The position numbers and the translations under genes are program-made. Of a stretch of DNA of 64,000 nucleotides, positions 49,014-64,000 are shown one piece after another (the first letter of the stretch is position 1; each line of letters starts with the position of its first letter). Under the pieces are notes generated by a model. The model saw only the letters and a program-made list of their open reading frames with translations. It had not been told where the DNA came from and did not search any database. Source of the stretch: the human T2T-CHM13v2.0 reference genome, Homo sapiens; assembly GCF_009914755.1 (NCBI RefSeq), contig NC_060930.1, one strand, 5' to 3'.

Positions 49014-49592
<579 letters not shown>

Positions 49593-52630: not shown

Positions 52631-52964
<334 letters not shown>

Positions 52965-53257: not shown

Positions 53258-53684
<427 letters not shown>

Positions 53685-55458: not shown

Positions 55459-56336
<878 letters not shown>

Positions 56337-57724: not shown

Positions 57725-58010
57725 GGCCAGGTGCAGTGACTCGGGTCTATAATCCCAGCACTTTGGGAGGGCAGGGTAGAATCACTTAACGCCAGGAGTT
57801 TGAGACCAGTCTGGGCAACACAGTGAGACCTTATCACTACAAAAAATATTTCAAAAAAAATTAGTCAGGTATAATGGCTCAAGCCTGTAATTCTACCTAC
57901 TCAGGAGGCTGAAGCAGGAGGATCACTTGAGCCTAGGAGTTTGAGTTACAGTGAACTATGATAATGCCACTGTACTCCAGCCTAGGTGACAGACTGAGTC
58001 CCTAAGGAAA
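57725..58010 (+). mobile_element. AluJ (Jo-like)
   Basis: 'ggaggatcacttgagcctaggagtttgag...cagtgaactatgat'. Confidence 0.9.
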
Positions 58011-58378
58011 AACTAAAGGATAAACATGCTCTGATTCTTAAGTAAAAATGAAGGCTTGAGTGACAAATTTTAAGGGTCATTTAAAAAGAGACCTCAAACA
58101 GCATTCTTTCTGGCCAAAAAAAAAAAAAAAAAAAAAACTTAAAAATCTGTATCATTTTGGCATTTGTTCATTTGTTTTCATCTCTAGGAATAAAATCTGG
58201 ACTATTGACTCTAACTTCAGTTAGACTTTTGGTTTTGTATGTCTTAAAGATTGCTCTGTTGGCTCTTTATATCTTAGCTTTCCTGCACAATTTTATCTCT
58301 ACTTTCTTCATGTTTTTTATCCCACTAATTGTCTTGGCTGAGAACTTTCCAGTTCAATTCTCAGGCTTAAGGAATTTT

Positions 58379-58670
<292 letters not shown>

Positions 58671-58977
58671 TCTCAGGCTTAAGGAATTTTAACTTCAGTT
58701 GGTCTGGTCCCAGCCCCTGACAAAAGGAAAAATACATAAGATATTTTTTTAAAATACATTTTAGAGGAGGCAACATGAGGGACAAATACGTTTTGGAAGA
58801 AGAGAATTCAACAAGGGATTCCATATTCACCTACGCAGCTATCAGTAAAGTGATCATATATCTTATCATCTAGACCATGATACTTTAGAGAATTTAAAAC
58901 ATCACTAACTAGACAGACTGCCAGAAAGGATATATCAGCTGAAACTTCTGGGACAAAGTTGAGCATATGGTGGTCAC

Positions 58978-60278
58978 TATGATGGTTAATTTTACATGTC
59001 AACTGAGCTGAGGAATGCAAAGACAGCTGGTGAAACATTATTTCTGGGTGTGTCTGTGGGGAATGAAAGTCAGAAACATAAATGTTAGAGCCCCAAATAA
59101 GTTCTTAATGTTGGAAGTAAAAATTAGTGTGACTGTCAAGTAGAAGAAAAGTTTACCTAATTTCAACAAGAGATCAAAATTAACATTTATGGAGACAAGG
59201 GATAAGGGGAACCTCCATCTCCCATGCATTTTTAATAATGTAATGATATCATGTGGTTGTTTTTGATCAAAATTAAGTTTCACTTTGAGATTTGTTTTGT
59301 GGAAAAAAATTAAAAACAGAACCATTTTAATAAAATTTGAAACACTTCACTTCTAAGGAGTGTTAGAATTCAGGTTTTAGATTTAGCTAAATGTCAAGAG
59401 CAAACTCAAAAGCAGTCTACTGATATTATAGAATTAGCAGGAATGGCAGGAGGCTTCAATCACAAGAACTCAGTTCCTCTCTTATTGTAGCTTTGTTATC
59501 AGGAATTATCACTGACATAGCAATTTTTCTATGTTACTTCAACATCTGGCTTACAGGAAACATCATGGTTTGTCTTTCTTGCCAGTAGACACAACCTATC
59601 AGGAATTTAAAACTAATGAGGGATAAATTTTAAAATATCGCAAGGGTCTTTCCTTCCTCAATAATGCTTCTCACCACTTCTAAAATCAAATTTTCATTTA
59701 TGTTTTATGGTATAAAATATAATGAATTGATGTGAGACATGGTTATTCTGTTATAGAATATGTTTTCATAATGTATCAGCTATGGTTGAATCCAAGGTGT
59801 CAAAGATCTATTTTTCTCAATTGACTCTGATTATATCCTTGGGATTTTTTACATTTCTCTTAACTTAGTCCCTAATCTTTGCACAATTTGAAGTCAAGAA
59901 GGTCACCGTCAATGATGCGGGCAGTCGTTCTCCAAACCCTTGGAGGCATAAATAGAACAAAAAGTTTTAGGAAGGGTGAATTTGTTCTCCTAGACCTGGA
60001 ACATTCTTCTTCTTTTGCCCTCAGGCATGATTGCCCCTGGTTCTCAGGCCTTTGCACTCAGACCAGGATTTATACCACTTGTTTTTCTGGTGCTCGGGTC
60101 TTCAGAGTTGGGTTGAATTACGCTATGGGTTTTCCTTGTCTCCAGCTTTCAGAAGACAGATGTAGGACTACTTGGACCCCATAATCACATGGAGCCAAAT
60201 CTTGTAAAAAATTTTCCTACCTCTACATACATATATGTCACATTGGCTCTATTTCTCTGAAGACTCTTGACTAATACA
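58978..60278 (+). mobile_element. MLT2 (B/D-like) solo LTR split into 58978-59060 and ~59890-60278 by an ~830-bp insert
   Basis: 5' 'tgatggttaatttt...aaacattatttctgggtgtgtctgtg', 3' 'aatagaacaaaaag...tgactaataca'; perfect 5-bp TSD GTCAC at 58973-58977 and 60279-60283. Confidence 0.9.
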
Positions 60279-61180
60279 GTCACCCTAGCTAAAAATGAAT
60301 GTGGCATTACCCCAGTGATTCTAGAAACAAAAACTAAGGTTGGGAAGGGGAGCTGCAAAGAAACTCATTGGCATTGCCAATCAGGACATGGCTTTACACA
60401 TAGTTTGATATGGTGTTTTGTATTAAACCTTCCTTGGTGTCTTGGTCTTCAAACACACAGTTGCCCAAAGAATAGGCCCAAGTCAAGATAAATGTAAGAA
60501 ATTCCAAGGATGTAATCAGAGTCACTTGAGAAAAATAGATCTTTGACAACTTGAATTTAGCCATAGTTGATACATTATAAAAACACATTCTATAACAGAA
60601 TAACCATGTCTCAAATCAATTCATTATATTTTGTACAATAAAAAATAAATGAAAATTTGATTTTAGAAGTTTTGGAAAGCATTATTCAGGAAGAGAAGAT
60701 CCTTGTGATATTTAAAAATTTCTCCTTCACTAGTTTTAAATTCCTGATAGGTTGTATCTATGGGCAAGAAAGACAAACCATGATGTTTCCTGTAAGCCAG
60801 ATGCTGAAGTAATATAGGAAACTTGATATGTCAGTGACAATTCCTGACAATAAAACTACAATAATGAGAAGAACTGAGTTCTTATGATTGAAGCCTCCTG
60901 CCATTCCTGCTAATTCTATAATATCAGTAGACTGCTTTTCGAGTTTGCTCTTGACATTTAGCTAATCTAAAACCTGAATTCTAACACTCCTTAGAAGTAA
61001 AGCACTTCAAATTTTCTTAAAATGGCTTTGTTTTTACATTTTTTCCACAAAACACGTCTCACAATGAAAATTTTCATCAAGACAACCACATGATATCGTT
61101 ACATTAGTAAAAATGCATGGGAGATGGAGGTTCTCTTTATCCCTCATCTCCATCTCCATAATGTAAATTTGATGTCTTGT
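59166..61180. repeat. Long inverted repeat: arms 59166-59881 and 60466-61180, spacer ~584 bp
   Basis: Manual reverse-complement alignment is colinear over ~715 bp at roughly 85-90% identity. Confidence 0.97.
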
Positions 61181-61229
61181 CTAAAGACTTAGAATCTTCA
61201 TTAACCATTCTCTTGTCTTTATCCTTTTT

Positions 61230-62582
61230 AAGGACTTTTTAAAATAGCACTTTCAGGTTCACAGCAAAGTTGAGAGGAGGATAGAGAGATACCCCATATA
61301 GTCCCAGCCCCAGATATGCATAGTATCCTCCACTATTAGTATCCTCCACTAGAGTGGCGTATTTGTTGCAATTGATGAACCTACACTGACGCAATATCAT
61401 TATCGTCCAAAGTCCATAGTCTACCCTAGGGTTTATTCTTGGTGATGTACATTCTTTGGGTTTGGACAAATGTATAATGACATGTATCTGTCATTATAGT
61501 AACATTCAGAGTACTTCCACTGCCCTAAAAATCCTCTGTGCTTTGTTTATTCATCCCTACCTCCCCTCTAATCTCTTGGCAACTACTGATGTTTTTACTA
61601 TTTCCATAGTTTTTAGCTTTCCAGAATGTCATGTAATTGGAATCATACTGTAGCCTTTTCAGATTGGCTTCTTTCACTATCTTCTTTCACTTTCTTCCAT
61701 GTCTTTTCATGGCTTGATAGCTCATTTCTTTTTAGCACTGAACAGTATTCCACTGTCTACATGCCTGTGGTGAGCTGCATGTACTGTAGTTTATCCATTC
61801 ACCCACTGAAGGACTTCTTCGTTATTTCCAACGTTTGTCCATTATGAATAAAACTTCTGTAATCATCCATGTTCAGGACTTTATGTGGCATAATTTTTCA
61901 ACTCTTTTAGGTATATACCAAGGAGAAAAATTGCTGGATTATATGGTAAGAACGTGTTTAGTTTTGTAAGAAAACACCAAAATGTCTCCCAAGTGGCTGT
62001 TTCATTTTGTATTCCAGCAGCAATGAATGAGAGTTCTTGTTGATCCACATTCTCACCAGTATTTGGGTTGTCAATGTTCTGAATTTGGGCCATTCTCATA
62101 GATATGCAGTGGTATCTCAATGTTTTAATTTGCATTTCCCTGATGACATATGATGTGAAGTATCTTTTCATATGCTTATTTGCCATCTGTACATCTTTGG
62201 TGAGGTCTTCAGCCCATCTTTTAATCAGGTTGTTTTCTAATTGTTGAGGTTTGAGTTCATTGTGTAATTTGGATAAGCATTCTTTATTAGATATGTCTTT
62301 TGTAAATATTTTCTTCCATTCTGGGGCTTGATTTTTCAGTCTCTTGACAGTGTTTTTCTCAGAGCAGAAATTTTTAATTTTAAATGAAGTCCAGCACATC
62401 AATTCTTCCTTTCATGACTTTGGCATCTTACCTAAAAAGTAATTGCCAAACCCAAAGTCATCTAGATTTTTCCCCCATGTTATTTGTAAGAGTTTTATAG
62501 TTTTGAATTTTACATTTAGGTCTGTGATCCTTTGAGTTAGTTTTTTTTTTGAAGAATGTGAGGTCTGGGTCTGGATTCATTC
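61230..62582 (-). mobile_element. L1MC1-like 3' portion
   Basis: 'caattgatgaacctacactgac...ccaaagtccatagt'; minus ORF remnant 'KIKNFCSEK...[12 protein letters not shown]...YNPAIFLLGIY'. Confidence 0.88.
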
Positions 62583-63297
62583 TCCATTATCTTTTATAGT
62601 TAATTAATCTCCAAGTATCTCTGAGAAACTATTCAAATGTGTTTTATTTCTGCCATTTCTTCTGTCACTGAAATCCTCCCTGTTGTAAATCACATGTCAC
62701 AAAATATGGAAAACACACCTTAAAACATTATAAACATAGACATACTATTCTCATTCTCAATGGGGAATGAAATATCCTAAGACAGGCATTTGCTCAAATA
62801 TGGATTCTATTGGGATTTCTGGCCTATGAACCTTCTCTATTGTTATAAACAAAATAAGAGAAGAAAAGCAGTATTTCTTTGACTTATCTCTGACTTGAGA
62901 AAAAATAAAAAGATTTAAAGAGAGCAAGATAAAGTTGGGGGAGGAGGAGAGGATTAGAGAAGAAATAGCCTTACACATATCATCACAATCTTGTTCCCAT
63001 TTACAAGGTCACAGGAGGTAGGCTTCAGTCCAGAGTATTCCTTACTCATTTATAATCTAAGACAGATAGCCAGAAAAATAGAGTAGCTTTGGAAATAATT
63101 GAGTCACTATAATGGGCACCAAATTTTTTTTTATTATTTTTTCCTTTAAGTTTTCCAAATTATGTTTTGTCAGTTGGACTATAATGATTGTCAAGGGCAT
63201 TTAGTGATGGTTTTAATGAAGTATCTTCAAGACAGTGGAAATCTTTCATATATGTACAGTATGTTTCCTGAATACCATTAACTGTCTTATTGCCTTA

Positions 63298-64000
63298 CAT
63301 TTATCATTCAATGAATACTTATTAACCACCTACTTTGGGTCAGGCACTATGTGTGATACTGTGTAAGGCAGTGATAAATAATACAGACAGGGATCTTCAG
63401 TCTGGTTAGGGAATGAGATAATAAACATCGAAATATGTAAATAATTATGTAAGTACAAACTGAGAAGAATGCTAAATATCAAATTAGTAAGGAAGAATAG
63501 GCAGAAATAACTTTGAAGACATAGCATTGAAAGTGTGATGGGAGTGATAAAAAGCCATGTGAGAAGGATTTGTAGAGAGAACATTCCCACCAACAAGAAC
63601 AGTTTTGCACTGTTCCTAAGACAGGATGTATGTAATGAACCAAAAGGAGCTCAATTCAGCTTCAGCATAGTGAGAAAGGGAGAGAAGAGAGATTATATTA
63701 CAGAGGTTGTCAGGGAGCTATGATCCAGGGTCTTTAGGTTAGGTGGGTGATATGAGTATCACCCTAAGTACAAGGAGGAACCAGGAAAACTTTTAAATCA
63801 TATCATAGCAACCCCAAAACTCAGGCACAGTGGAAGGACCACTTTGAGGTAGAAGGAAGGACATCCTTGTATTTAGGGGAAAAGAAAGGGACCAGAGTCC
63901 CTTTGCTATTTGTGGACTTGCTGATGGAATGCCTTTTGAAGCTCCCTTTGGATAGCTGCTACCTTCTTAAATCAATGAAATAAAGTCACCAGCTGATATT
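63298..64000 (-). mobile_element. L2 remnant(s)
   Basis: 'cattcaatgaatacttattaaccacctactttgggtcaggcact' is an antisense L2 3' end. Confidence 0.75.

What the first reader, a model, noticed from the sequence alone, without database searches (positions are those of the whole stretch)
59060..61180. ~715-bp inverted repeat of apparently unique DNA, created by pasting a reversed neighbouring segment into an MLT2 LTR
Seen: 59166-59881 is the reverse complement of 60466-61180 (roughly 85-90% identical by eye), with a ~584-bp spacer. The left arm sits inside an MLT2 LTR whose two halves share a perfect GTCAC TSD, so the left arm is the derived copy and postdates the LTR. The insert has no poly-A or TSD, and a few tens of LTR bases appear to be missing at the site, so it is not retrotransposition. 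I recognise no repeat family in the arms. Inference: template-switch or break-repair duplication. Any transcript crossing it, on either strand, could fold into a ~700-bp non-Alu duplex (potential ADAR, Dicer/endo-siRNA or dsRNA-sensor substrate). The arms could also mediate inversion of the spacer.
Basis: partly seen in the sequence, partly recalled or inferred. Interest (0 to 1): 0.8.

Follow-up and report, generated by a model that had tools for sequence, protein, structure and literature searches.

The report
Old inverted copy pasted into LTR
About 40 million years ago a 715-base stretch of ordinary single-copy human DNA was copied backwards into a nearby retroviral LTR remnant, leaving a decayed inverted repeat that looks like a repair scar, not a working element.

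Summary
Window 59166-59881 is the reverse complement of 60466-61180: 88.1% identity over 723 columns, with a 584-nt spacer. In the whole T2T genome each arm finds only itself and its partner (2 of 2 first-look candidates).

The left arm, plus a 103-nt orphan stretch (59063-59165) that matches nothing, interrupts a multicopy solo LTR (58978-60278). The LTR has perfect GTCAC target-site duplications, and about 35-40 LTR bases are lost at the site. So the left arm is the derived copy.

Best reading: one templated inverted insertion, by replicative template switch or break repair copying from 0.6-2 kb away. I date it to roughly 25-55 Myr from K2P 0.109, using recalled substitution rates.

New here: a 113-column substitution-free tract inside arms that are otherwise 11.9% diverged (3 of 20000 permutations). 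Gene conversion between the arms is the likeliest cause.

A transcript could fold into a roughly 660-bp imperfect duplex. But no gene is annotated here, there is no Rfam hit or long ORF, and wobble-compatible changes show no strand bias (22 vs 23).

Verdict: a real, clean example of a known kind of mutation, probably neutral.

The parts
58973..58977 (+). Left target-site duplication of the LTR (GTCAC)
   Evidence: Sequence read. Identical 5-mer at 60279-60283.
58978..59062 (+). 5' part of a multicopy solo LTR (ERVL/MLT2-like; the name is recalled, not tested)
   Evidence: 618 first-look candidates, 40 scored; the 39 other than the query's own place are at 79-85% identity, and alignments cover window about 58977-59062; homology to other copies stops at 59057-59064.
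59063..59165 (.). Orphan 103-nt filler between the LTR part and the left arm; origin unknown
   Evidence: only itself in the genome at E <= 10 (1 candidate); no significant similarity on either strand to the source flanks, arms, local LTR, four other LTR copies or the neighbourhood. Best case was 13 of 300 shuffles reaching the score, among 23 shuffle tests.
59166..59881 (-). Left arm: derived, inverted copy of 60466-61180
   Evidence: 88.1% identity. It interrupts the LTR.
59882..59889 (.). About 8 nt at the arm/LTR junction that cannot be assigned
   Evidence: Sequence. LTR homology resumes at about 59886-59892. Microhomology cannot be judged at this divergence.
59890..60278 (+). 3' part of the same solo LTR
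   Evidence: 298 first-look candidates, 40 scored; the 40 matches other than the query's own place are at 66-83% identity, and alignments run from window 59892 to 60278-60281; adjacent to the 5' part in other copies.
60279..60283 (+). Right target-site duplication of the LTR (GTCAC)
60284..60465 (.). Single-copy DNA between the LTR and the source arm
   Evidence: only itself in the genome at E <= 1 (1 candidate).
60466..61180 (+). Right arm: inferred source of the copy
   Evidence: Direction is inferred because only the left arm interrupts an older element.
60885..60998 (+). Substitution-free tract, right-arm side (partner is 59349-59462)
   Evidence: 113 aligned columns with no substitution and two 1-nt indels, against 71 substitutions in the other 595 columns. 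A run this long occurred in 3 of 20000 permutations.
59349..59462 (-). Substitution-free tract, left-arm side
61216..61613 (-). High-copy repeat fragment next to the source arm (L1 3'-end-like by recall); context only
   Evidence: 4290 first-look candidates, 40 scored; the 39 other than the query's own place are at 75-79% identity, and alignments cover query 36-113 to 362-440, most ending at 433 (window about 61216-61293 to 61542-61620).

Best explanation
A single ancient mutational event copied 715 nt of single-copy DNA (60466-61180) in reverse orientation into a site 0.6-2 kb upstream, inside an older solo LTR. It replaced about 35-40 LTR bases and also left 103 nt of filler of unknown origin.

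The geometry is that of a template switch. Synthesis leaves the LTR at about 59062, copies the opposite strand from 61180 back to 60466, and returns to the LTR about 36 nt downstream of where it left. This is order 1-4-3-2 in the four-point model. The same structure could come from repair of a double-strand break by invasion and copying of nearby DNA followed by end joining.

Since then both arms have decayed at a neutral-looking rate. The exception is a 113-nt patch that was most likely re-homogenised by gene conversion between the arms. I infer no present function: it is a neutral scar that happens to be able to form a long imperfect hairpin if transcribed.

Shown: the repeat, its uniqueness, its position in the LTR, the lost LTR bases, the orphan and the uneven divergence. 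Inferred: the direction of copying, the mechanism, the age, the gene conversion and the neutrality.
For: - Inverted identity is 88.1% over 723 columns. There are only two copies in the genome.
- The left arm plus orphan splits an element that is contiguous elsewhere. Both LTR parts were found adjacent in 21 of 22 other loci. In the 10 loci whose alignments reach window 59057-59062 on one side and 59891-59896 on the other, 38-43 nt lie between them (sequences).
- Perfect 5-nt TSDs at the LTR's outer ends show the LTR went in whole.
- No TSD or poly-A surrounds the insert.
- The LTR parts are colinear, so the spacer keeps its ancestral orientation.
- Pattern 1-4-3-2 is described as one of the two majority patterns that generate single inverted repeats (PMC7954356, passages read).
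- Divergence between arms (p = 0.100, K2P 0.1085, ts:tv 45:26) is symmetric in direction (12/12/11/10 for the four transition classes).
- The arms are 88% identical, against 66-85% for the LTR family's pairwise matches and 75-79% for the neighbouring repeat family. This fits an event younger than both insertions.
- Uneven divergence: 0 substitutions in 113 columns against 11.9% elsewhere, 3 of 20000 permutations.
Against: - No outgroup genome could be examined, so the empty site, the direction of copying and the date are inferred, not seen.
- Junction microhomology, which would favour a replicative or polymerase-theta route, cannot be judged after about 12% divergence.
- The 103-nt orphan is not explained by a simple two-switch event.
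- The substitution-free tract carries two 1-nt indels. That is a little odd for a recent conversion and is also compatible with constraint.
- Neutrality is assumed from lack of annotation. No expression, editing or conservation data were available.
Confidence: 0.8

Rival explanations
1. The structure arose from an inversion made by staggered breaks, which leaves inverted duplicates at the ends of the inverted segment. A second flip of the spacer by recombination between the then-identical arms restored its orientation.
For: Inverted duplicates flanking a segment are the signature of that model (recalled from Drosophila inversion studies, not read here). The substitution-free tract suggests the arms have recombined at some time.
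Against: The two LTR parts are colinear and share outer TSDs, so the spacer is in its ancestral orientation. This model therefore needs two events. It does not explain the 35-40 lost LTR bases or the 103-nt orphan.
Confidence: 0.05
2. The insert is an RNA-mediated copy. An antisense local transcript covering 60466-61180 was reverse-transcribed into a break in the LTR by endonuclease-independent retroposition.
For: Insertions of this kind can lack TSDs and delete target bases (recalled knowledge). The orphan could in principle be another exon.
Against: There is no poly-A at either end of the insert. The orphan has no second copy in the genome that could be a source exon. No transcript is annotated here (hub table). 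The source lies only 0.6 kb away, which is what DNA-level template switching predicts.
Confidence: 0.05
3. The arms are copies of a mobile element: either terminal inverted repeats of one transposon or two independent insertions of the same element.
For: None beyond the inverted-repeat shape.
Against: Each arm has exactly two genomic matches (2 of 2 candidates). The same search recovers LTR relatives at 66-70% identity. The LTR is split by the left arm only, and its 3' part lies inside the would-be element. No TSD flanks either arm or the whole unit. The longest stop-to-stop frame touching the arms is 102 codons (59038-59346, minus strand), and it starts in the LTR part and the orphan; no frame lying wholly within an arm exceeds 67 codons.
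Confidence: 0.02
4. The locus is a working hairpin-RNA gene born from the duplication. It is transcribed, folds into a long duplex that is edited by ADAR or diced into small RNAs, and its core is held by selection on both arms.
For: Predicted MFE is -1098 (plus) and -1116 (minus) kcal/mol for 59166-61180, with 658 of 716 arm bases paired across arms. There is a 113-column tract without substitutions. A survey argues that some expressed intergenic inverted duplicates are functional (PMC5398296, passages).
Against: No gene or functional element is annotated in the 64-kb window (hub table). No Rfam family matches the arms above noise; the best is snoZ267 at 24.1 bits against a gathering score of 43, E = 0.25. 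Transitions are not biased to keep G:U pairs on either strand (22 vs 23, p = 1.0). About 12% divergence outside the tract looks like free decay. The arms hold only 3 and 1 CpG at 31-32% GC, so they carry no CpG-rich, promoter-like sequence.
Confidence: 0.05
5. The repeat is an assembly artefact.
For: None.
Against: Artefactual fold-backs are near-perfect. These arms differ at 71 substitutions and 8 indels, and each has its own distinct flanks.
Confidence: 0.01

Closest known systems
Template-switch mutations under the four-point model (short-range template switching in great apes; PMC7954356, passages read)
   Same: The reverse-complement copy comes from a nearby template and is placed with a small skip at the return point. 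The point order is 1-4-3-2, which creates a single inverted repeat. There is no TSD.
   Different: That work concerns local events, with templates tens to hundreds of nucleotides from each mutation cluster (passages). Here 715 nt were copied from 0.6-2 kb away, with an extra 103-nt orphan. The event is tens of millions of years old, so its junctions are blurred.
FoSTeS/MMBIR and templated-insertion repair (PMC2621351 and PMC8421209; only search listings and abstract starts seen)
   Same: Non-recurrent, copy-in-cis insertion with a deletion at the site and possible multi-template complexity, of which the orphan could be a sign.
   Different: Those models are mostly documented for kilobase-to-megabase pathogenic or somatic rearrangements with visible microhomology. 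Here microhomology cannot be assessed and the event is fixed and small.
Catalogued mammalian 'inverted duplicates' with spacers of 1 kb or less (PMC5398296, passages read)
   Same: An intergenic inverted duplicate in non-repeat DNA with a spacer under 1 kb, capable of forming a hairpin.
   Different: In that catalogue the 80th percentile of human arm length is 36 nt, so this one, at 715 nt, lies far in the upper tail. By that paper's 1-nt-overlap rule it might still be filed as 'repetitive' because of the LTR next to it. Expression, the paper's criterion for function, is unknown here.
Long, nearly perfect endogenous dsRNAs regarded as MDA5/ADAR1-relevant (PMC7006430, passages; PMC11838218, passages and section 10)
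   Same: The arms are longer than 300 bp, and the locus is intergenic like most such predicted structures (88% of them are intergenic in PMC11838218).
   Different: Those classes require >96% identity or pairing and are mostly inverted LINE or Alu pairs. This pair is 88% identical (92% of arm bases paired when G:U is allowed), is made of non-repeat DNA, and has no known transcript.

Membership tests
Templated inverted insertion / template-switch mutation | The inserted segment is the reverse complement of a sequence nearby on the same chromosome, and the source is retained | tested here: met
   60466-61180 vs 59881-59166, 88.1% over 723 columns. The source starts 585 nt downstream of the copy's end.
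Templated inverted insertion / template-switch mutation | No target-site duplication or poly-A around the insert; small deletion or filler at the site | tested here: met
   Sequence. About 35-40 LTR bases have no counterpart. The 103-nt orphan is unmatched.
Templated inverted insertion / template-switch mutation | Microhomology at the switch points | tested here: inconclusive
   Junctions were read. With about 12% divergence and an 8-nt unassignable stretch (59882-59889), no call is possible.
Templated inverted insertion / template-switch mutation | The ancestral (outgroup) state lacks the insert and has the intact target | not testable with these tools
   No other mammalian genome is held. 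Intact copies of the LTR family elsewhere serve only as a proxy.
Transposable element (TIR transposon or two insertions of one family) | Multiple copies in the genome | tested here: not met
   2 of 2 candidates, the two arms only. Positive control for sensitivity: LTR relatives at 66-70% identity were found.
Transposable element (TIR transposon or two insertions of one family) | Target-site duplication flanking the unit or each copy | tested here: not met
   Flanks were read. None is present.
Solo LTR of an endogenous retrovirus (ERVL/MLT2-like) | Dispersed multicopy element of about 0.5 kb with defined ends | tested here: met
   298 and 618 first-look candidates. Alignments start at about 58977 and end at 60278-60281. 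Other copies span about 525 nt.
Solo LTR of an endogenous retrovirus (ERVL/MLT2-like) | Short perfect target-site duplication at the outer ends | tested here: met
   GTCAC at 58973-58977 and 60279-60283.
Solo LTR of an endogenous retrovirus (ERVL/MLT2-like) | Assignment to the named Dfam/Repbase family MLT2 | not testable with these tools
No repeat library is on hand.
Long nearly perfect dsRNA (MDA5/ADAR1-relevant class) | Duplex longer than 300 bp | tested here: met
   658 of 716 arm bases paired arm to arm.
Long nearly perfect dsRNA (MDA5/ADAR1-relevant class) | More than 96% identity or pairing (criterion in PMC7006430 and PMC11838218) | tested here: not met
   88.1% identity. 92% of bases are paired when G:U is included, and the longest uninterrupted helix is 55 bp (plus) or 74 bp (minus).
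Long nearly perfect dsRNA (MDA5/ADAR1-relevant class) | Both arms transcribed on one RNA | not testable with these tools
   No expression data are available. The hub table lists no gene in the window.
Inversion with flanking inverted duplications (staggered-break model) | The segment between the duplicates is inverted relative to the ancestral order | tested here: not met
   The LTR 5' and 3' parts are colinear with matching outer TSDs.

The most novel reading that the evidence does not exclude
The duplication created a primate-specific hairpin-RNA locus from non-repeat DNA. The 113-nt substitution-free core (60885-60998 / 59349-59462) would then be kept alike in both arms by selection on a transcribed duplex (an ADAR, Dicer or dsRNA-binding target), not by gene conversion. 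The evidence does not exclude this, because neither expression nor cross-species data could be examined.
Probability: 0.04. Interest if true: 0.6.

Novelty: new member of a known kind. Interest (0 to 1): 0.25.

Why it matters
This is a clean, datable, kilobase-scale example of an inverted templated insertion fixed in the human lineage. The target is an LTR whose intact form is known from hundreds of copies, so the breakpoints, the lost bases and the filler can be read with unusual clarity.

Such cases show how long hairpin-capable loci can arise from non-repeat DNA without transposons. They also show how arms of an inverted repeat keep exchanging sequence afterwards.

Beyond that it has no shown biological role. 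It lies in a gene desert, is now too diverged for efficient recombination, and is below the pairing level discussed for innate-immune sensing.

Tried and rejected
1. Origin of the 103-nt orphan (59063-59165).
- Genome search found only itself.
- A relaxed blastn against the whole window gave best E = 0.009 for two AT-rich 35-51-nt matches, which I do not trust.
- Shuffle-controlled local alignments were run on both strands against 61181-61230, 61601-61900 and 60280-60470. They were also run against the local LTR parts, four other LTR copies, the right arm, 58000-58971 and 61181-64000.
- Nothing beat the shuffles convincingly. The best was 13 of 300, among 23 tests.
- So the orphan is not a continuation of the source, whether or not the neighbouring repeat was already present.

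2. A global alignment with very cheap gap extension produced noise and was discarded. One search used stricter local alignments and printed the sequences.

3. By eye, the start of the left arm resembles the LTR bases lost at the site. The arm is clearly homologous to the right arm there, so I treat this as chance or unprovable homeology.

4. Rfam at E <= 1 over 58000-62500 gave only Alu-related hits outside the arms and one sub-threshold snoRNA hit.

5. Stop-to-stop ORFs of 50 codons or more: 11 are listed. The longest touching an arm is 102 codons (59038-59346, minus strand), starting in the LTR part and the orphan; none lying wholly within an arm exceeds 67 codons. No coding reading was pursued.

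6. Strand-specific G:U bias as a sign of selection on an RNA stem was absent (22 vs 23).

8. One paper search failed on a phrase that was too long and was re-sent as shorter terms.

9. The hub's list of masked stretches was not used as evidence of uniqueness. It omits the LTR and the neighbouring high-copy repeat, both of which are plainly repeats.

Full report
**The observation**

A self-comparison of window 58000-62500 gives one strong non-trivial match. 60466-61180 pairs with 59881-59166 on the opposite strand at 88.105% identity over 723 columns, with 71 mismatches, 8 gap openings and E = 0. The repeat finder sees the same thing as four colinear ungapped blocks of 74-390 nt at 87-97% complementarity.

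A global alignment gives 708 aligned pairs and 71 substitutions (45 transitions, 26 transversions). The p-distance is 0.100 and K2P is 0.1085. There are eight gaps of 1-5 nt, and the longest identical run is 55 nt. The spacer is 584 nt.

Across the whole 64-kb window, only four inverted pairs of 150 nt or more lie within 5 kb of each other. The other three have arms of about 185 nt and sit in stretches the hub lists as masked.

**Are the arms a repeat family?**

Each arm was searched against the 3.1-Gb genome that holds the window. Both times the first look produced two candidates and two matches: the arm itself and its partner (the latter at E <= 10).

The tool warns that it can miss very common words. 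However, it recovered relatives of the flanking LTR at only 66-70% identity, so a family of that similarity or better would have been seen. The 182 nt between the LTR and the right arm are also single-copy.

Rfam finds nothing credible in the arms. The best hit is snoZ267 at 24.1 bits against a gathering score of 43, E = 0.25. The longest stop-to-stop frame touching an arm is 102 codons (59038-59346, minus strand), and it starts in the LTR part and the orphan. No frame lying wholly within an arm exceeds 67 codons. Each arm is 31-32% GC, with 3 and 1 CpG.

**The context**

- 58960-59070 and 59885-60285 each hit a large dispersed family: 618 and 298 first-look candidates, 40 scored each.
- In 21 of the 22 other loci fetched, both parts occur side by side in the same order and strand. 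L013 showed only the 3' part.
- In the 10 loci whose alignments reach window 59057-59062 on one side and 59891-59896 on the other, 38-43 nt lie between them.
- Reading ten copies against the window places the end of the 5' part at about 59062 and the resumption at about 59886-59892. About 35-40 bases of the element have no counterpart here.
- The element is bounded by GTCAC at 58973-58977 and 60279-60283.

It is thus a solo LTR of about 0.5 kb that went in whole and was later interrupted. No repeat library was available to test it.

**What lies inside the LTR**

The insert is 59063-59889. It comprises 103 nt of orphan sequence (59063-59165), the 716-nt left arm (59166-59881) and about 8 nt that cannot be assigned.

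The orphan has no other match in the genome. It has no similarity beyond shuffled controls to any of the following:
- the DNA on either side of the source arm;
- the DNA beyond the neighbouring repeat;
- the arms themselves;
- the local LTR;
- four other LTR copies.

There is no poly-A and no duplication at the insert's ends.

**Direction and mechanism (inferred)**

Only the left arm interrupts an older element, so it is the derived copy and 60466-61180 is the source.

The two LTR parts are colinear, so the spacer has its ancestral orientation. In ancestral coordinates the order of the four switch points is as follows:
- the leaving point in the LTR;
- the return point about 36 nt further on;
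- then the two ends of the copied stretch.

This is 1-4-3-2. A study of great-ape template switching names it as one of the two majority patterns that create single inverted repeats (PMC7954356, passages read).

A replicative template switch and a break repaired by copying nearby DNA give the same product. I cannot separate them, because junction microhomology is unreadable at this divergence.

Three other origins fit less well:
- A staggered-break inversion would need a second flip to restore the spacer.
- An RNA-mediated copy lacks a tail and a source for the orphan.
- A mobile element is contradicted by copy number and by the position of the LTR parts.

**Age (inferred)**

The arms differ by K2P 0.109 overall and by 11.9% outside the tract described below. 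I assume both arms decay independently at a recalled neutral rate of about 1.2-2.2 x 10^-9 per site per year. This gives roughly 25-55 million years, placing the event in anthropoid ancestors.

The LTR family's pairwise identities (66-85%) and those of the high-copy repeat at 61216-61613 (75-79%) are lower than the arms' 88%. This fits an event younger than both insertions.

**Uneven divergence**

Substitutions are not spread evenly. Columns 60885-60998 / 59462-59349 (113 aligned pairs) have none, only two 1-nt indels. The remaining 595 pairs carry all 71 substitutions. A run this long arose in 3 of 20000 permutations.

Gene conversion between arms of an inverted repeat is the simplest cause. 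Constraint on both copies is the alternative. Only a multi-species comparison can tell them apart.

**Function**

As RNA, 59166-61180 would fold with an MFE of -1098 kcal/mol (plus strand) or -1116 kcal/mol (minus strand). In each, 658 of 716 arm bases pair arm to arm, and the longest perfect helices are 55 and 74 bp. That is only potential.

- The hub's table lists no gene or functional element in the window. The nearest lncRNA ends 67.8 kb upstream.
- Transitions that would keep a G:U pair are split 22 to 23 between the strands. Nothing suggests selection on a stem.
- Two papers treat duplexes of >300 bp and >96% identity or pairing as the class relevant to MDA5, and find them rare and mostly intergenic and untranscribed (PMC7006430, passages; PMC11838218, passages and section 10). 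This duplex fails the identity criterion.
- A survey of mammalian inverted duplicates with spacers up to 1 kb puts the 80th percentile of human arm length at 36 nt (PMC5398296, passages). This one is an extreme member of a catalogued class, not a new class.
- With a longest identical run of 55 nt, present-day recombination that would flip the spacer should be inefficient. This rests on recalled requirements of a few hundred identical bases for mammalian homologous recombination.

**Verdict**

The object is one more instance, though an unusually legible and large one, of a templated inverted insertion. It carries an unexplained 103-nt filler and a probable conversion tract. Its RNA-level and recombination-level consequences remain untested, and I judge them unlikely.

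Supplements of the cited papers were not opened. They may list this locus among predicted dsRNAs or inverted duplicates.

Noticed in passing
window 58359-58690: An Alu-type SINE on the minus strand: two Metazoa_SRP matches at 58387-58535 and 58553-58669 below the gathering score, plus a mir-1268 look-alike. It is flanked by a perfect 20-nt direct repeat at 58359-58378 and 58671-58690, probably its target-site duplication.
   Followed up: partly
window 61216-61613: A high-copy repeat fragment of about 400 nt lies 36-45 nt beyond the source arm (4290 first-look candidates; the 39 scored matches other than its own place are 75-79% identical). By recall it resembles the 3' end of an old L1 on the minus strand. 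Its lower pairwise identity suggests it was already there when the arm was copied.
   Followed up: partly
window 49289-49475, 52764-52950, 53277-53458, 55838-56021: Alu-sized inverted pairs at 79-82% complementarity. One pair (52767-52948 / 53277-53458) has arms only 328 nt apart. All lie in stretches the hub lists as masked.
   Followed up: no
window 59254-59327: A weak plus-strand match to the C/D-box snoRNA family snoZ267 inside the left arm: 24.1 bits against a gathering score of 43, E = 0.25. Most likely chance.
   Followed up: no
L009:764-838 and 1483-1829: In this other copy of the LTR family, the 5' and 3' parts are about 645 nt apart instead of about 40. That copy also seems to carry an insertion near the same region of the LTR. 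Not examined.
   Followed up: no
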